64,000 nt of DNA from a virus, in IMG/VR virus record IMGVR_UViG_3300037247_001118, positions 8,894-72,893 of that record. One strand, 5' to 3'. The translations under genes were made by a program, and so were the position numbers. The notes below the pieces were generated by a model that did not search any database, was not told the origin of the DNA, and saw only the letters and a list, made by a program, of their open reading frames with translations. Positions 43,157 through 47,679 of the stretch are shown here, piece after piece; position 1 is the stretch's first letter; the number at the start of each line of letters is the position of its first letter.

Positions 43157-43624
43157 ATGACCGCAGTAATCGCAATCGCCGGAATCCTAGTTCTGATAGG
43201 CGCGTGGCTGCGTCCCGAGCCCCGTCGGCTGCCAGAACCCTGCCCATGCAAGCACCTGCCCTACGAGACACTGGTGGACGATCTGGAGCGGTGCCACGAG
43301 GAGCGGCTGCGCGTCCTGGCGGAGAACGAGCGGCTGGCGGCTGTGAAGAACGACATGTACGGTCACCCGATTTGGTTACTGGGAGACACAGGGTACGGTG
43401 TCAGCGTTTCGGTCTACACTCAGGGGGATGGTCCGCCTACGCCCGATTTCACGCTCTTCCACCACAGCGATGGCTTTCGGCAGGCGCTGTTCTCAGTAAC
43501 CGCACGCGGGATGTTTTCGGAGAGGCGGGGTCCAGAGGTCCATAACGTCTTCGAGCACCGCGTGGCTGGCGTGCTGGCGGTAGCCGAGGAGTGTTCCGCT
43601 GAAGCAGCGGAGGAGGACCGTTAG
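43157..43624 (+). CDS. Hypothetical protein with an N-terminal membrane anchor
   Basis: MTAVIAIAGILVLIGAW; GGAGG RBS. Confidence 0.55.
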   Translation: MTAVIAIAGILVLIGAWLRPEPRRLPEPCPCKHLPYETLVDDLERCHEERLRVLAENERLAAVKNDMYGHPIWLLGDTGYGVSVSVYTQGDGPPTPDFTLFHHSDGFRQALFSVTARGMFSERRGPEVHNVFEHRVAGVLAVAEECSAEAAEEDR

Positions 43625-43703
43625 CCATGATAACACACTGCCCACGTTGCGGACGCAAGAGCTTAGTGATGACTGACGGGCGCAGCTACTGCGTGCGCGC
43701 TGC

Positions 43704-44120
43704 GTGCGGGTACAGCTCGTGAGGCGACTCACCGACAAGCAGCAGGCGAAGCGCATCGGCCGCATCATGGAGCGATGGCTCCGGCGCCTGGATTTATACA
43801 ACACGTGGGCCGTCAGTGTCGAGGTAGTGTGCCCATCCGACCTTCCTAAAGACGCACTTGCGTCAGTTGACCTCAGCCTGCCCTACCAGCGGGCGACGAT
43901 CAAGGTCAACCGCAGCTACCTGGCCAAGGCTCCCGACGGCGACCTAGAGCACAATCTGCTGCACGAGCTGGTACATCTCGTGCTCCAGCCACTCACCATC
44001 GTGGCTGAGAAGCACATCCCGAAGGACACCAAGGCGCAGTTCCAGTACGCCCACGAGTCGGTGACGGACGCGATTACGCACCTGCTACTGTGGGACAGCA
44101 AAGGCGAGCGCAACCGATGA
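43704..44120 (+). CDS. HExxH zinc metallopeptidase-like protein
   Basis: LLHELVHL with a downstream E (HESV). Confidence 0.7.
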   Translation: MRVQLVRRLTDKQQAKRIGRIMERWLRRLDLYNTWAVSVEVVCPSDLPKDALASVDLSLPYQRATIKVNRSYLAKAPDGDLEHNLLHELVHLVLQPLTIVAEKHIPKDTKAQFQYAHESVTDAITHLLLWDSKGERNR

Positions 44121-46072
44121 CTCAGGGACTCATCATCGTAGGCGACGTCCTCGACGGCCTAGCGCGGCTGGACGACAACTCGGTTGATGTTGTCGTTACG
44201 GATCCGCCGTACGAGCTCGCCTTCATGGGGTCCAAGTGGGATGCGACGGGAGTGGCCTTCCGCCAGGAGACCTGGGAGGCGTGCCTGCGCGTCCTGAAGC
44301 CTGGCGGGCACCTGATCGCATTCGGCGGCACCCGCACGCATCACCGGATGTGGTGTGCCATCGAGGACGCGGGCTTCGAGGTACGGGACATGTTGACCTG
44401 GATGTACGGTACAGGATTTCCGAAGTCGCTGGACGTGAGCAAGGCTATCGATAAGGCGGCAGGGGCGGAGCGGAAGGTGATTGGGGTGAATCCGCACCAT
44501 AGACCTCGTAGTCACATGGAGGAAAATACTTGGCGTCAGGCAGAGGGTCGAGGTGCCAGTCCTATGAGTTCGCCAGACCTCACCACCCCGGCTACCGACG
44601 AAGCCAAGCAGTGGGAGGGATATGGCACGGCGCTCAAGCCCGCTGTCGAGCCCATCCTGTTGGCGCGGAAGCCGCTGTCGGAGCCGACGGTCGCGGTCAA
44701 CGTCCTCAAGTGGGGGACTGGAGCCTTGGCGATTGACGCGACGAGGATTGGGACGGAAAAGATCACACAGCACGGTCGGGATGATAGTGAGAATCGTGCG
44801 ATGTCTGGACGCAATTACGCCGAACCTGCGGGTCGTGAATGGGTTGGGCGCTGGCCCGCGAACGTGATCTTCGAGTGTACCTGCGACGACCCCCAGCCGT
44901 TGCCGGAGAAGGCGCGCGAGCGCAAGGGCGAGCCGACGCAGAGCAAGCTGTACAAGGACGCGGGCGCTACCAACTTCGCCGCCAAGCCAGGAGCCGTACG
45001 CCGCGAAGGCGGCGGCTTCGTCCACCAGCCGGACTGTCCGGCGGGGATGCTGGACGCGCAGAGTGGGAAACTGCATGCTCCTGTTAGTAGTGGTCGGAAG
45101 GGTGCTGCCTCGGCGAGCGGATTCCTCGGTGAACTCGGCGCTCAGTCACAGGAGCGTAACTATGATGACTCCGGCGGCGCCTCCCGGTTCTTCTTCACTG
45201 CCCGATCCTCTCAGGACGAGTTGCTTCTTTGCCGAGCAAAGGCTATAATGGAGGCATGGAATCCCGACCTTGCGAACACTGTGGACAGCTCTTCTTGCCT
45301 GTCAAGCGAAGCCGTCGTTTCTGCTCTAAGCGATGCAGTGGTCGTGGCCAGTTGCGGGGAAATGCGCGTAAACGAATGCCAGGTACCTTCTACAGGCGCA
45401 ACGCCGAGCGCGTTAAGGCGGCTATGCGAAAACGCTATCATTCTGACCCTGAGTACCGAGCCAAAATCCTTGCCCGCGTCATTTCGTATCGACACGGTAC
45501 CATCGAAGGTCAGCCGTGCGAAACGTGCGGCGCGGAAAAAGCCGACCGGCACCACGACGACTACTCCAAGCCGCACGAGTTCCGATGGCTATGCCGTCGT
45601 TGTCACATTGGCTACCATCGGAAGCAGTACGGAAGCTGGGGCAGCGGGCTCCGCAACAAGGTTCCGCTACGCGGCGAAAGCGTCACGCGCTGAGCGCGAA
45701 CGCGGCCTGGAGGACTTCGAGCCGGTCACAGGCGCAGAGGCGGTCAACCGCAAGCCCGACACCGCCGGCCTGAAGTCGCCGCGTGCTGGCGCTGGACGGT
45801 CAGCTAAGGAGATTCGCAACACGCATAATACGGTCAAACCTATCGCCCTGATGCGCTGGCTGGTGCGGCTGGTCACGCCACCAGGCGGTTTGGTACTCGA
45901 CCCCTTCTGCGGTAGCGGCTCGACGCTGATCGCCGCCCGCGAGGAGGGGCACGACTTCGTCGGCATCGACCTCAGCCCTGAGTATTGCCGCATCGCCGAG
46001 GCGCGAGTAGGCGGCGCAGAGCTAGTGGCGGTGGAGACATCAGAGGACACGGACCCGGAGTGGGAGGAGTAG
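44117..46072 (+). CDS. DNA N4/N6 methyltransferase (beta class) carrying a 158-aa in-frame insertion
   Basis: TDPPY, LKPGG, GFPKS, ALKPA.EPI, RWPAN, HNTVKP, VLDPFCGSGST. Confidence 0.92.
   Translation: MTQGLIIVGDVLDGLARLDDNSVDVVVTDPPYELAFMGSKWDATGVAFRQETWEACLRVLKPGGHLIAFGGTRTHHRMWCAIEDAGFEVRDMLTWMYGTGFPKSLDVSKAIDKAAGAERKVIGVNPHHRPRSHMEENTWRQAEGRGASPMSSPDLTTPATDEAKQWEGYGTALKPAVEPILLARKPLSEPTVAVNVLKWGTGALAIDATRIGTEKITQHGRDDSENRAMSGRNYAEPAGREWVGRWPANVIFECTCDDPQPLPEKARERKGEPTQSKLYKDAGATNFAAKPGAVRREGGGFVHQPDCPAGMLDAQSGKLHAPVSSGRKGAASASGFLGELGAQSQERNYDDSGGASRFFFTARSSQDELLLCRAKAIMEAWNPDLANTVDSSSCLSSEAVVSALSDAVVVASCGEMRVNECQVPSTGATPSALRRLCENAIILTLSTEPKSLPASFRIDTVPSKVSRAKRAARKKPTGTTTTTPSRTSSDGYAVVVTLATIGSSTEAGAAGSATRFRYAAKASRAERERGLEDFEPVTGAEAVNRKPDTAGLKSPRAGAGRSAKEIRNTHNTVKPIALMRWLVRLVTPPGGLVLDPFCGSGSTLIAAREEGHDFVGIDLSPEYCRIAEARVGGAELVAVETSEDTDPEWEE
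45221..45249 (+). promoter_or_regulatory. Internal promoter for the nested HNH gene
   Basis: TTGCTT-17-TATAAT; the ATG at 45256 is 7 nt downstream, consistent with a leaderless transcript. Confidence 0.6.
45256..45693 (+). CDS. Nested HNH/His-Me finger nuclease in an alternative frame
   Basis: CEHCG..FCSKRC zinc finger, basic helix, CETCG...RHHDDYSKPHEFRWLCRRCH...H. Confidence 0.8.
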   Translation: MESRPCEHCGQLFLPVKRSRRFCSKRCSGRGQLRGNARKRMPGTFYRRNAERVKAAMRKRYHSDPEYRAKILARVISYRHGTIEGQPCETCGAEKADRHHDDYSKPHEFRWLCRRCHIGYHRKQYGSWGSGLRNKVPLRGESVTR

Positions 46073-46075
46073 ATC

Positions 46076-46468
46076 ATGAGAGTGATAGTATGCGGTGATC
46101 GACGCTGGGACCTGCCCCGAGTTATCCAGGCGCGCCTGTTGAAGTTGCCGCTGTTCGCGGTTGTGATTCACGGGGCGGCGCCCGGTGCGGATACTGCTGG
46201 GGGACAGATTGCCGCTGCGTGCGGGTTCGGAGTTGAGCCGTACCCGGCGCATTGGCGACACACCGAGGACTGCCCACCGAACTGTTCTGAGTATGTGGGT
46301 CCAGGCGCCGGCCCAATCCGCAATCGGCGGATGCTCGCGGCGAAGCCGGATCTCGTCCTGGCGTTCCACGCCGACCTTGCGCACAGCAAGGGGACGAAGC
46401 ACATGGTGGGCATCGCCCGAAAGGCTGGGATTCCGGTAGAGATCATTACGGGGATGGAGGAGGAGTAG
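46076..46468 (+). CDS. YspA/SLOG (DUF2493) family protein
   Basis: MRVIVCGDR, IHGAAPGAD, AGPIRNRRM, KGTKHM. Confidence 0.88.
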   Translation: MRVIVCGDRRWDLPRVIQARLLKLPLFAVVIHGAAPGADTAGGQIAAACGFGVEPYPAHWRHTEDCPPNCSEYVGPGAGPIRNRRMLAAKPDLVLAFHADLAHSKGTKHMVGIARKAGIPVEIITGMEEE

Positions 46469-46470
46469 AT

Positions 46471-46743
46471 ATGACCGCAATTGAACGAGCCGAAGCACTG
46501 CTGGCGGAGAACGATCTTGAGTGTACGGGAGTGGCATACTGTACGCCGTGTCAGCGTGCGGAGAGGGCCGACAGCACGATTAAGGAGGAGGCAATCGCCA
46601 CTCTACGCGGCTACATCGGTGCTGTCAAGGCGTTGGAGGCGTGGGAGTCGGGTGGCTACATCGCAGAGTGGAAGCGCCTGCGCGGCGAGGCCATCGCCGA
46701 CTTCGAGCGCCTCTTCCCGGAGGCGCCGGCGAGCGCCGATTGA
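46471..46743 (+). CDS. Hypothetical protein
   Basis: 90 aa; strong RBS. Confidence 0.55.
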   Translation: MTAIERAEALLAENDLECTGVAYCTPCQRAERADSTIKEEAIATLRGYIGAVKALEAWESGGYIAEWKRLRGEAIADFERLFPEAPASAD

Positions 46744-46779: not shown

Positions 46780-47679
46780 ATGCGAGTCGGTAGTCTCTTC
46801 TCAGGTATCGGCGGGATCGATCTTGGCCTTGAGCGGGCGGGCATGGAGGTCGTCTGGCAGTGCGAGATCGACTCCTACTGCCGCAAGGTGCTGGCTAAGC
46901 ACTGGCCTGACGTACACTGCTACGAGGATGTGAGGACGCTCGATGACACTACGCCGAAAGTTGACATCATCTGCGGAGGATTCCCCTGCCAGCCGGTCTC
47001 ACATGCGGGTCGGCGCAAAGGGATGCAAGACGACCGCTGGCTCTGGCCCGAGTTTGTGCGAGTCATACGCGCAGTTAGGCCCCGATGGGTCCTGGCTGAA
47101 AATGTACCAGGACTCCTTTCAATTGAAACTGGACGGCTCTTCGGTGGAGTGCTCAGAGACTTGGCCGAGAGCGGGTATGATGCGGAATGGGACTGCATAC
47201 CGGCGGCAGCCCTTGGTGCCCCGCACATCCGCGAGAGGGTCTTTCTCATTGCCCACACCGACAGCGATAGGGATGCAGCGCGGCAGCAAGAGCACACGCC
47301 CGCACGGCAATCTACACGACTTGGCGCGGACGGGGATGTGGCCCACGCCAGATACGGCTTTAGGGCCCCATGGGCCAAGGGGAGGGCGCACGAATCAGAG
47401 GGGGCATCAAGAGACGCTTCAAGACGCGGTGAAGCGCTGGCCAACGCCGCAGCAGAGCGATTGGAAGGGCCCCAACTATTCGGGCAGCGGCTCTCAGAGC
47501 AGCGAGGGCCTGAGCACCAAGGCTGGTGGGCAACTGAACCCGACGTGGGTCGAGTGGCTCATGGGGTTCCCGCCCGGGTGGACAGACTTAGAGGACTCGG
47601 CAACGCCGTCGTGCCCCAGGTCGCCGAGTACGTCGGACGGATGATCATGGAGGCTGACGCGAGTAGGAGGGTACGATGA
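46780..47679 (+). CDS. dcm: C5 cytosine DNA methyltransferase, alpha polypeptide
   Basis: LFSGIGG, GGFPCQ, ENV, HIRERVF, LGNAV; motif IX is absent from this frame. Confidence 0.93.
   Translation: MRVGSLFSGIGGIDLGLERAGMEVVWQCEIDSYCRKVLAKHWPDVHCYEDVRTLDDTTPKVDIICGGFPCQPVSHAGRRKGMQDDRWLWPEFVRVIRAVRPRWVLAENVPGLLSIETGRLFGGVLRDLAESGYDAEWDCIPAAALGAPHIRERVFLIAHTDSDRDAARQQEHTPARQSTRLGADGDVAHARYGFRAPWAKGRAHESEGASRDASRRGEALANAAAERLEGPQLFGQRLSEQRGPEHQGWWATEPDVGRVAHGVPARVDRLRGLGNAVVPQVAEYVGRMIMEADASRRVR
46943..47644 (+). CDS. Overlapping beta polypeptide of the C5 methyltransferase
   Basis: +1 frame, 233 aa, GAGGA RBS; repeated (W/L)PTP and motif-IX-like LNPTWVEWLMGFPPGWT. Confidence 0.75.
   Translation: MTLRRKLTSSAEDSPASRSHMRVGAKGCKTTAGSGPSLCESYAQLGPDGSWLKMYQDSFQLKLDGSSVECSETWPRAGMMRNGTAYRRQPLVPRTSARGSFSLPTPTAIGMQRGSKSTRPHGNLHDLARTGMWPTPDTALGPHGPRGGRTNQRGHQETLQDAVKRWPTPQQSDWKGPNYSGSGSQSSEGLSTKAGGQLNPTWVEWLMGFPPGWTDLEDSATPSCPRSPSTSDG

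What the first reader, a model, noticed from the sequence alone, without database searches (positions are those of the whole stretch)
45185..45693. Self-contained HNH nuclease cassette overprinted inside a methyltransferase gene with both frames open
Seen: the methyltransferase motif that usually reads SRFFY.AKAS occurs twice, 474 nt apart (RFFFTARSS at 45185 and RFRYAAKAS at 45659). The 158 intervening codons are Ser/Thr/Ala-rich filler in the methyltransferase frame with no stop. In the -1 frame they encode a 145-aa zinc finger plus HNH-type protein (ATG 45256; RHHDDYSKP..RWLCRRCH). The insert carries its own TTGCTT-17-TATAAT promoter, placed for a leaderless mRNA. No intein termini or intron core are evident. 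Inference: a homing-endonuclease-like element that spares its host gene by dual coding in a tolerant loop rather than by splicing. Alternatively, a nested methylase-nuclease pair.
Basis: partly seen in the sequence, partly recalled or inferred. Interest (0 to 1): 0.87.

Follow-up and report, generated by a model that had tools for sequence, protein, structure and literature searches.

The report
Hidden HNH gene inside phage methyltransferase
A selfish DNA-cutting (HNH) gene is written in a shifted reading frame inside this phage's DNA methyltransferase gene, whose own frame stays open so it is probably read straight through; this trick was first published in 2025, and this is a separate, widespread lineage at a new site.

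Summary
A 474-nt (158-codon) insert lies at window 45194-45667 in a PF01555 DNA methyltransferase gene (44117-46072). It has no stop in the host frame. In the third frame it encodes an intact 145-aa zinc-finger/HNH protein (45256-45693).

The same cassette sits at the same methyltransferase site (G-G-A-S-R-F-F | Y-x-A-K-A-S) in 26 of 26 related viral contigs (GC 0.35-0.68), one bacterial MAG contig and 20 database proteins. The host frame has no stop in any of the 27 cassettes. Free-standing relatives carry about 3 stops per 100 codons in that frame.

Substitutions show purifying selection on the HNH frame (median pN/pS 0.39). The overprinted host frame looks near neutral (1.21). The methyltransferase flanks stay constrained (0.46). 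Cassette presence is patchy on the methyltransferase tree (at least 13 changes), and HNH proteins are often more alike than their hosts. No intron or intein signal was found.

The kind is already published: the ShiLan domain and Pacc40 elements (Arsenault, Gosselin and Gogarten 2025). This element uses an unrelated HNH and a different site. The claimed leaderless promoter is plausible but untested. This scan has noted the same kind on other DNA (58 notes, at least 53 genomes).

The parts
44117..46072 (+). DNA methyltransferase gene (651 aa plus stop), N6/N4 type, read through the insert
   Evidence: One ORF. PF01555 E 4.6e-33 in two stretches, and phrog_67 E 1.7e-69. DPPY and DPFCGSGS motifs are visible.
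45194..45667 (+). 474-nt (158-codon) insert, defined relative to empty alleles (SRFF | YCAKAS)
   Evidence: Alignments with the empty alleles P0003, P0006, P0009 and P0012. In the AlphaFold2 model, residues about 361-447 are helices at pLDDT 43-65 and residues 448-519 are at about 30.
45256..45693 (+). Nested HNH-type endonuclease gene (145 aa plus TGA), third frame relative to the host. Its last 26 nt overlap the resumed methyltransferase motif.
   Evidence: phrog_2340 'endonuclease' E 1.9e-10. tblastn hits to phage endonucleases. 25 invariant columns including four Cys pairs and H99 H100 D101 D102. Model pLDDT 79.9 with strand-strand-helix at 97-125.
45271..45336 (+). N-terminal zinc-ribbon codons (C6, C9, C23, C27)
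   Evidence: Invariant in 23 of 23 aligned sequences.
45517..45618 (+). HNH core codons (C88-x2-C91 ... D97, H99 H100 D D Y ... C113-x2-C116 H117 ... H121)
   Evidence: Invariant or nearly invariant columns. The profile aligns to the HNH domain of Cas5-HNH (8yb6_A) at E 0.032.
45221..45249 (+). Promoter-like TTGCTT-17-TATAAT, ending 6 nt before ATG 45256 (putative, for a leaderless transcript)
   Evidence: Sequence. Not called by the scan. TAnnnT is kept at this place in 5 of 7 cassettes of the window's subgroup (WIN, L008, L009, L010, L020 yes; L011, L032 no).
45185..45211 (+). Upstream motif copy RFFFTARSS. The RFF belongs to the host; the rest is the degenerate 5' end of the insert.
45659..45685 (+). 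Downstream motif RFRYAAKAS, the copy that aligns with the conserved Y-x-A-K-A-S-..-E-R of all homologues
   Evidence: pLDDT 83-88 in blocks 521-540 of the model.

Best explanation
This is a 'hidden' homing-endonuclease cassette. An HNH-type nuclease gene with its own start codon is inserted into a conserved motif of a phage N6/N4 DNA methyltransferase gene. The insert length is a multiple of three, and the nuclease lies in the third frame of the host.

The methyltransferase is translated straight through the insert. It therefore carries a 158-residue extra loop that is largely unconstrained and probably partly disordered. The loop sits between G-G-A-S-R-F-F and Y-A-A-K-A-S, and the enzyme stays functional.

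The nuclease is made separately from the internal ATG. In the window this would be from a leaderless transcript of a TATAAT-type promoter or by internal initiation on the methyltransferase mRNA. In many relatives there is an ordinary Shine-Dalgarno site.

The nuclease cuts methyltransferase alleles that lack the cassette. Repair from the occupied allele then copies the cassette in (homing). Cassettes are later lost by in-frame deletion.

Shown here: the anatomy, the conservation of the arrangement, stop avoidance in the host frame, purifying selection on the HNH frame and on the methyltransferase flanks, a patchy host-incongruent distribution, and a deletion remnant. Inferred: absence of splicing, nuclease activity and target, methyltransferase activity with the loop, and the route of HNH expression.
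For: 1. Same cassette at the same site. In 26 of 26 viral contigs with a close HNH relative (49-66% identity; 23 distinct sequences), the HNH ORF lies inside a 364-939 aa stop-free stretch in the frame +1 to it. That stretch bears methyltransferase motifs. All inserts lie between G[GS]A[AS]RFF and (RFx)Y.AKAS. The one close relative among 50 loci from bacterial and archaeal genomes (L089, Ramlibacter MAG) is nested in the same way.

2. The open host frame is not a GC effect. Locus GC is 0.35-0.68. There are 0 stops in the host frame in 27 of 27 cassettes (3,767 codons, my sum). Nulls drawn from host codon usage give 0.5-7.7 expected stops per cassette, with P(0) = 0.000 for L021 and L023. The 54 free-standing relatives carry 3.0 stops per 100 codons in that frame. 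Only 7 of 54 have none, and all 7 spans are 105 codons or shorter.

3. Frame-specific selection. Median pN/pS is 0.39 in the HNH frame and 1.21 in the host frame of the overlap. It is lower in the HNH frame in 165 of 165 pairs. The methyltransferase flanks of cassette-bearing genes have a median pN/pS of 0.46 over 47 pairs.

4. Mobility. On a tree of 120 methyltransferases (43 with the insert, 77 empty), cassette presence needs at least 13 changes, 9 of them forced by starred branches. The window groups with the empty P0003 and P0004 (support 96*). HNH identity exceeds methyltransferase core identity in 192 of 253 pairs, for example L008-L010 at 93% against 67%. L139 keeps a 17-aa remnant of the cassette, SRFF-ATMRYSD-TEAGAAASVT-RFKY.

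5. No rival signal. No intron family was found in the window region at E up to 10, nor in 20 related loci at gathering score. No Hint or intein domain was found in the 651-aa protein. The residue after the insert is Tyr.

6. Precedent. The same architecture is published for two other elements in PMC11855218 (sections 1, 3, 4 and legends read).
Against: - Nothing here is experimental. Splicing, bypass or another removal route is excluded only by the argument that selection keeps the host frame open.
- HNH family membership is weak by curated models. Pfam PF01844 is matched by 2 of 23 members, best E 0.053. NinG matches at E 0.0015, below its cut-off. Fold searches gave no clear match: Foldseek found none at E 0.001 or better, and VIA-align's best HNH rows were Z 4.3 and 3.6.
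- In the window alone, the stop-free host frame is only mildly unlikely (P 0.08).
- Lower divergence of inserts than of flanks could partly reflect the double constraint of overlapping frames rather than recent transfer.
- Tree counts cannot separate gains from losses (FastTree, local supports only).
- The promoter was not called by the scan. No RNA data exist for this uncultured phage.
Confidence: 0.8

Rival explanations
1. The insert is a group I (or other) self-splicing intron carrying an HNH ORF, and it is removed from the methyltransferase mRNA.
For: HNH homing endonucleases are typical intron passengers (established knowledge). The 5' end of the insert resembles the start of the downstream exon. 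Arsenault et al. discuss such a resemblance as a possible intron signature.
Against: No intron family matched in window 44000-46200 even at E up to 10. None matched in 20 related loci at gathering score. An intron has no need for a length that is a multiple of three or for an open host frame, yet 27 of 27 cassettes have both, down to 35% GC. The HNH ORF fills about 92% of the insert and runs past its 3' end, which leaves no room for a ribozyme core.
Confidence: 0.04
2. The insert is an atypical intein that is removed by protein splicing.
For: It is an in-frame insertion in a conserved motif with a patchy distribution, as inteins have.
Against: No Hint or intein domain in Pfam. The residue after the insert is Tyr, not Cys/Ser/Thr, and there is no terminal His-Asn. 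The host-frame sequence of the insert evolves at pN/pS about 1.2, which a splicing domain could not tolerate. Half of it is modelled at pLDDT about 30.
Confidence: 0.01
3. This is a co-operating nested methylase-nuclease unit. The HNH is a restriction-like or anti-competitor nuclease, its cutting is blocked by the methylation that the host gene makes, and the pair is kept together for that reason rather than by homing.
For: The nuclease sits inside a methyltransferase. At least four unrelated HNH families do the same: this one, ShiLan type, Pacc40 type and the HNH_3 ORF in L139 (PMC11855218). Nothing tested here excludes methylation-sensitive cutting.
Against: Close methyltransferase relatives do well without the cassette: 77 of 120 tree rows are empty, including the window's nearest. 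The cassette moves between diverged methyltransferases. It is lost by deletion while the methyltransferase stays intact. It interrupts a conserved motif, as homing elements do.
Confidence: 0.08
4. The methyltransferase is dead or dispensable. The HNH is an ordinary free-standing gene, and the open host frame is inherited chance.
For: In the window alone P(no stop) is 0.08. The published authors note that this methylase is not essential in mycobacteriophages.
Against: There are 0 stops in 3,767 host-frame codons across 27 cassettes, where free-standing relatives have 3.0 per 100. Flank pN/pS is 0.46. The catalytic motifs are invariant.
Confidence: 0.04

Closest known systems
ShiLan domain: hidden out-of-frame HNH in mycobacteriophage DNA methylases (Gosselin et al. 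2023, PMC9957025, passages read; Arsenault, Gosselin and Gogarten 2025, PMC11855218, sections 1, 3, 4 and legends read). It is also annotated as nested genes in StellaBean gp97/gp98 and mentioned for Applejack gp54/gp55 (PMC12613952, passages read).
   Same: The host gene family is the same: PF01555 methylases, 43-48% identical to the window's. Both are in-frame, stop-free insertions with an HNH gene in another frame. Both lack intron and intein signals. Both are patchy, with inserts less diverged than their hosts. In both, the first residues of the insert resemble the first residues after it. In both, the host-frame loop is modelled at low confidence with a small helical part.
   Different: The site differs: ShiLan type lies at WLYG|SGFPKS, about 240 residues upstream, and the mycobacteriophage genes are empty at the window's site. 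The nuclease is unrelated: window HNH against StellaBean gp98 gives best E 0.029 over a zinc-finger motif. Sizes are 145 aa and a 158-aa insert here, against 195 and 202. The start is ATG here, not GTG. This family is found in environmental viral contigs of 35-68% GC rather than in actinophages.
Pacc40 gp60 hidden HNH-like insertion (PMC11855218, section 3.6)
   Same: An out-of-frame nuclease-like ORF (159 aa, third frame) inside an open in-frame insertion of a phage methylase.
   Different: No sequence similarity to the window's HNH (tblastn best E 0.30). The host is a different methylase fused to a helicase, 1,342 aa long. The Pacc40 ORF had no Pfam match.
Intron-encoded and intein-embedded homing endonucleases (for example I-HmuI, PI-SceI; recalled general knowledge)
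   Same: A selfish nuclease sits in a conserved motif of a host gene and spreads by cutting the empty allele.
   Different: Those elements spare the host by RNA or protein splicing. Here no splicing apparatus is detectable, and the host frame itself is kept open.
Free-standing homing endonucleases that split a host gene (mobE in Aeromonas phage Aeh1 nrdA, recalled) and in-frame LAGLIDADG insertions in fungal rps3 that carry a duplicated host segment (Sethuraman et al. 2009, recalled; neither paper was opened here)
   Same: A homing endonuclease gene without intron or intein lies inside a coding gene. The rps3 case also has a duplicated piece of host coding sequence at the junction.
   Different: There the host gene is split in two, or the nuclease is fused in the host's frame. 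Here there is one continuous host ORF and a nuclease in a different frame.

Membership tests
Hidden out-of-frame HNH insertion elements of phage DNA methylases (kind defined in PMC11855218) | [quoted passage not shown] | tested here: met
   P0003 (73% identical) and other homologues are empty at the site. 77 of 120 tree rows are empty.
Hidden out-of-frame HNH insertion elements of phage DNA methylases (kind defined in PMC11855218) | Insert length is a multiple of three and there is no stop in the host frame | tested here: met
   474 nt with one ORF. 27 of 27 cassettes have 0 host-frame stops.
Hidden out-of-frame HNH insertion elements of phage DNA methylases (kind defined in PMC11855218) | An alternative-frame ORF within the insert encodes an HNH-type endonuclease | tested here: met
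   phrog_2340 E 1.9e-10. Conserved C-x2-C / HH / C-x2-C-H motifs. pN/pS 0.39 in that frame.
Hidden out-of-frame HNH insertion elements of phage DNA methylases (kind defined in PMC11855218) | No detectable intron or intein machinery | tested here: met
Hidden out-of-frame HNH insertion elements of phage DNA methylases (kind defined in PMC11855218) | Disjunct distribution, with the insert less diverged than the host gene | tested here: met
   At least 13 changes on the tree. HNH identity exceeds methyltransferase identity in 192 of 253 pairs.
ShiLan element proper (same lineage as ShiLan gp65 / StellaBean gp98) | Homologous HNH protein and the same insertion site | tested here: not met
   Best E 0.029 against StellaBean gp98. 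The site is about 240 residues away. I took StellaBean and Tarkin as ShiLan type because the paper lists cluster E. ShiLan's own sequence was not fetched.
HNH / His-Me finger endonuclease superfamily | Match to a curated HNH model above its threshold | tested here: not met
   PF01844 is matched by 2 of 23 members at best E 0.053. NinG scores 18.8 bits against a cut-off of 25.4. The PHROG 'endonuclease' family matches at 1.9e-10.
HNH / His-Me finger endonuclease superfamily | Beta-beta-alpha metal finger with a catalytic His and zinc-binding Cys pairs | tested here: inconclusive
   The model has strands 97-100 and 109-112 and helix 114-125 over the invariant C88, C91, H99, H100, C113, H117 and H121. 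Structural matches are weak: Gme HNH 4h9d Z 4.3, GVE2 HNH 5h0o Z 3.6. The PDB profile match to Cas5-HNH is E 0.032.
Group I / group II introns | Conserved ribozyme core detectable by covariance models | tested here: not met
   No intron family at E up to 10 in the window region. None at gathering score in 20 loci. Divergent introns can escape Rfam.
Inteins | Hint splicing blocks, a nucleophile at +1 and a terminal His-Asn | tested here: not met
   No Hint domain. Tyr follows the insert. The host-frame sequence is unconstrained.
N6/N4 DNA methyltransferase (PF01555) | Pfam match above threshold, with DPPY and FxGxG motifs | tested here: met
   115.5 bits against a cut-off of 26.7. D29 P30 P31 Y32 and F597 G599 S600 G601 are conserved.
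Active homing endonuclease | Site-specific cleavage of the empty allele and gene conversion | not testable with these tools
   Only the distribution pattern and a deletion remnant bear on this.

The most novel reading that the evidence does not exclude
Out-of-frame nesting is a general, convergent way of life for HNH homing endonucleases that is tied specifically to phage DNA methyltransferase genes, and it follows rules.

- The host frame must lie +1 to the nuclease frame, because that frame has the fewest chance stops (3.0 against 7.0 per 100 codons).
- The cassette's 5' end carries a degenerate copy of the downstream host motif, which lets the interrupted enzyme fold.
- The methyltransferase protects the carrier's own DNA from the nested nuclease.

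Together these would make the pair a nested drive-plus-antidote unit rather than a passenger in a tolerant loop.
Probability: 0.12. Interest if true: 0.8.

Novelty: new member of a known kind. Interest (0 to 1): 0.5.

Why it matters
Homing endonucleases were thought to live inside genes only with the help of a self-splicing intron or intein, or by splitting the gene. The 2025 description of 'hidden' out-of-frame HNH genes rested on a handful of mycobacteriophage genes and on structure predictions.

This window belongs to an independent lineage: an unrelated nuclease at a different site, in environmental phages from 35% to 68% GC. That lineage supplies the population-genetic evidence the published case lacked:
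- selection against stops in the host frame;
- purifying selection on the nuclease frame only;
- constrained host flanks;
- host-incongruent spread;
- a deletion remnant.

It also shows that gene callers will report such genes as one long methyltransferase and miss the nuclease. Annotators should translate the other frames of unexplained in-frame insertions. The practical interest is modest: a candidate site-specific nuclease, and a permissive 158-residue insertion site in a methyltransferase.

Tried and rejected
- Fold searches of the HNH model. Foldseek against PDB gave no match at E 0.001 or better. VIA-align wide gave nothing at Z 5 or more. These neither support nor deny the HNH fold.
- Pfam HNH models are below threshold.
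- The promoter scan called nothing in 43500-46500, so the promoter rests on reading the sequence only.
- RNA evidence: no RNA holder was listed for window 44800-46000, so expression and splicing could not be examined.
- Laying metagenome contigs. X1, which may be the source sample, has a 748-nt contig spanning both junctions without a difference. X3, from another study, holds pieces of the insert with 3 of 296, 8 of 167 and 6 of 124 letters different, while its flank pieces differ at 19 of 209 and 14 of 204. X1 has a loose end reading an empty-type GGASRFFYCA allele of some related gene. X4 has one contig joining 45186 to 45677 with 16 other letters between. These are short contigs of mixed organisms laid at 85% likeness, so I treat them as hints only.
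- Within-gene synonymous permutation was a poor null. It expected only 0-3.4 stops because the genes' own codon sets are already depleted of the offending codons. I replaced it with host-flank codon usage and with free-standing relatives.
- Frameshift fusion of the methyltransferase N-part to the HNH was considered. There is no slippery site or other evidence. A start codon is present a few codons before the first zinc-finger Cys in all 27 cassettes (ATG in 26, TTG in L023). I dropped this idea.
- P0004 (SRFF-TTV-RFRY) and the 14-15 aa loops of P0064, P0072, P0107 and P0111 at the site may be deletion remnants. Mycobacteriophage genes also have SRFF-PVF-KY there, so only L139's remnant is counted as such.
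- Rows left out. L014, L016 and L017 (identical to L013 and L015) were dropped from the tree and the identity counts. L012 and 22 database proteins could not be split by my motif pattern and are absent.
- Papers: supplements were not opened. The GitHub material of PMC11855218 was not seen and may list further elements.
- The claim that this site and nuclease are not in print rests on searches, and on the parts of the two Genes papers that I read.
Full report
WHAT IS THERE. The window is part of an IMG/VR virus record of 72,893 bases, estimated 89% complete. The best holder among public runs is a marine sediment metagenome. At 44117-46072 on the + strand lies one ORF of 651 codons. It is an N6/N4 DNA methyltransferase: PF01555 E 4.6e-33 matched in two separated stretches, and phrog_67 E 1.7e-69.

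Alignment with its nearest database relatives shows that P0003 (458 aa, 73% identical) reads ...GGASRFF-YCAKASRAERERG... At the same place the window reads ...GGASRFF-[158 residues]-YAAKASRAERERG... The insert is therefore 45194-45667, which is 474 nt. In the third frame of the host, an ORF runs from ATG 45256 to TGA 45691-45693 and gives 145 aa.

THE NESTED PROTEIN. It matches the PHROG family 2340 'endonuclease' (E 1.9e-10). By tblastn it matches 303 phage records, all under 60% identity, and many are annotated as endonuclease. An alignment of 23 family members has 25 invariant columns. They form an N-terminal C-x2-C...C-x3-C zinc ribbon and a C-x2-C...D-x-H-H-D-D-Y-x-K-P...C-R-x-C-H-x3-H block.

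The AlphaFold2 model has mean pLDDT 79.9 and places two strands and a helix (97-125) over that block. The profile aligns this block to the HNH domain of Cas5-HNH at E 0.032. Curated Pfam HNH models are not reached and fold searches are weak. 'HNH-type' therefore rests on the motif, the PHROG family and these weak matches.

THE ARRANGEMENT IS A CONSERVED FAMILY, NOT AN ACCIDENT. A scan of viral contigs with the HNH protein returned 80 loci. The 26 with a close relative (49-66% identity, full length; 23 distinct sequences) all have the HNH ORF inside a 364-939 aa stop-free stretch. That stretch lies in the frame +1 to the HNH and bears methyltransferase motifs. The third frame is closed (47 aa or less) in 24 of the 26. 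Four more distant relatives checked in the same call (L033-L036) have no long stop-free frame over the HNH.

All 26 inserts lie at the same place, between G[GS]A[AS]RFF and (RFx)Y.AKAS. Of the 97 database proteins I could classify, 20 also carry the insert. The one close relative among 50 loci from bacterial and archaeal genomes (L089) does too. Conserved islands of the host-frame translation (ANT..N.S, SALSDA, TGITTIT.S) coincide with the zinc-finger and HNH motifs of the other frame. They are by-products of those motifs.

SELECTION.
- Locus GC ranges from 0.35 to 0.68, so the open host frame is not a high-GC effect.
- No cassette has a stop in the host frame: 27 of 27, 3,767 codons by my sum.
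- Keeping each HNH protein but drawing codons from the host gene's own usage gives 0.5-7.7 expected stops. P(none) is 0.082 for the window and 0.000 for the two low-GC loci.
- The 54 free-standing relatives have 3.0 stops per 100 codons in that frame and 7.0 in the other. Only 7 of 54 have none, and all 7 are short matches.
- Over the 165 pairs of 55-98% HNH identity (of 351 pairs), median pN/pS is 0.39 in the HNH frame and 1.21 in the host frame. It is lower in the HNH frame in 165 of 165.
- Outside the insert, the methyltransferases of cassette-bearing genes have a median pN/pS of 0.46 over 47 pairs.

The nuclease is therefore maintained as a protein. The host enzyme is maintained too. The 158 extra residues are free to vary as long as no stop appears.

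The model of the whole 651-aa protein agrees. The core has high confidence, residues 361-447 are helices at pLDDT 43-65, and residues 448-519 are at about 30. The frame relation also makes sense: the host frame is the one that carries the fewest chance stops relative to a coding HNH frame.

MOBILITY. On a FastTree of 120 methyltransferases with the insert columns removed (43 with, 77 without), presence of the cassette needs at least 13 changes, and 9 of those are forced by well-supported branches. The window's nearest rows are the empty P0003 and P0004 (96*). P0005 and P0002 are likewise sisters of empty genes.

HNH identity exceeds methyltransferase core identity in 192 of 253 pairs, with r = 0.43. 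L008 and L010 share 93% in the HNH but 67% in the host. Their synonymous difference is 0.23 in the insert against 0.48 in the flanks. This may partly reflect overlap constraint.

L139 shows loss. At this site its otherwise intact methyltransferase reads SRFF-ATMRYSD-TEAGAAASVT-RFKY. These are the first seven and the last ten or so residues of the cassette as seen in P0002 and P0005.

NOT AN INTRON OR INTEIN. No intron family is matched in the window region even at E 10, nor in 20 related loci. The HNH ORF occupies nearly the whole insert. There is no Hint domain, the residue after the insert is Tyr, and the host-frame sequence is unconstrained.

EXPRESSION OF THE NUCLEASE (INFERRED). In the window, TATAAT (45244-45249) ends 6 nt before the ATG. 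This is the spacing expected for a leaderless transcript in actinobacteria (general knowledge). The -35 is poor and the scan tool did not call the site. TAnnnT is kept at this place in 5 of 7 members of the window's subgroup. Elsewhere in the family, 11 of 24 cassettes have Shine-Dalgarno pairing of -5 kcal/mol or better before the start (mean -4.9 against -2.9 at control positions). The signals are therefore heterogeneous, and internal initiation on the host mRNA is equally possible.

THE 'DUPLICATED MOTIF'. RFF before the insert and RFx just before the Tyr are general. Empty genes with short loops also show SRFF...[RP]F.Y. Beyond that, the first nine residues of the insert resemble the nine after it. 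The resemblance is clear in the window (score 18) and weaker across the family (+0.84 against -5.96). The same feature is reported for the ShiLan domain, so it may be a general trait of such cassettes. Its meaning is open; it could be a target duplication or a structural patch. The downstream copy is the one modelled with confidence.

COMPARISON WITH WHAT IS KNOWN. Literature searches found three papers that bear on this.
- Gosselin et al. 2023 (PMC9957025, passages read).
- Arsenault, Gosselin and Gogarten 2025 (PMC11855218, sections 1, 3, 4 and legends read). They describe the ShiLan domain, a 202-aa stop-free insertion in mycobacteriophage methylases that hides a 195-aa HNH in another frame. 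They also describe a second case in Pacc40 gp60. Both analyses are computational only.
- A 2025 genome announcement that notes the same for Applejack gp54/gp55 (PMC12613952).

GenBank annotates StellaBean gp98 inside gp97. The kind is therefore known.

The window's element is not the same lineage. The mycobacteriophage genes are empty at its site. Their insert lies about 240 residues upstream. The nucleases are unrelated.

A further unrelated case turned up in L139. A 164-aa HNH_3 ORF (PF13392, E 5.1e-14) sits in the third frame of another in-frame insert, about 15 residues downstream of the window's site.

This scan has also noted the kind repeatedly on other DNA: 58 notes in at least 53 genomes. 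One of them, e1-5952665, shares 3 of 180 short words with this HNH and describes a non-splicing 157-codon methylase insertion hiding an out-of-frame HNH, so it may be the same lineage; this was not tested.

VERDICT. The finding is a new, well-populated member of a kind first published in 2025, with stronger evolutionary evidence than the published cases and no experimental evidence.

Noticed in passing
L139:2500-2994 (+), inside the methyltransferase ORF L139:1367-3121: This is a second, unrelated hidden nuclease. A 164-aa ORF in the third frame of another in-frame insert of the same methyltransferase family, about 15 residues downstream of the window's site, matches Pfam HNH_3 at E 5.1e-14. 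P0018 and P0027 carry the same insert in the host frame.
   Followed up: partly
L139, methyltransferase residues around SRFF...RFKY: A 17-residue remnant (ATMRYSD-TEAGAAASVT) of the window-type cassette sits at the window's site. It is an in-frame internal deletion that removed the HNH gene.
   Followed up: partly
P0002 (781 aa), residues after FMG..WD: A further in-frame insertion of about 150 residues carries a LAGLIDADG_1 domain (PF00961, precomputed) near the N-terminus of a methyltransferase that also carries the window-type cassette. It resembles the 'lone LAGLIDADG' insertion described in PMC9957025.
   Followed up: no
L001:1402-3660 (StAnnes gp70) and L003:1420-3654 (Hannaconda gp142): These mycobacteriophage methylases carry an insertion of about 340 residues at WLYG|C...N|SGFPKS that looks like an intein. 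StAnnes gp70 is annotated only as 'endonuclease'.
   Followed up: no
P0064, P0072, P0107, P0111, P0004 (protein ids): Empty alleles carry 3-15 extra residues between SRFF and [RP]F.Y, for example TVTEWDPIADVAP. These may be older deletion remnants of the cassette or a natural variable loop.
   Followed up: no
window 46780-47679 (+) and 46943-47644 (+): The C5 cytosine methyltransferase (PF00145, E 9.6e-51) matches only profile positions 1-178 of 324. A 233-aa ORF in another frame lies wholly inside it and contains WPTP and ...WLMGFPPGWT strings. That ORF has no Pfam match.
   Followed up: partly
L002:1187-2792 (GreaseLightnin gp59-gp61): The homologous methyltransferase is annotated in three pieces (gp59, a 29-aa gp60, and gp61). 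It is therefore either broken or mis-called.
   Followed up: no
P0010 and P0018, after DPPY: A 26-residue insertion (QGSRRGSGRSNNPDSPAGRHGTKTGG) follows the catalytic DPPYDL motif in some family members.
   Followed up: no
window 46076-46468 (+): A YspA/SLOG-family gene (PF10686, E 5.2e-09; phrog_289) lies between the two methyltransferase genes.
   Followed up: no
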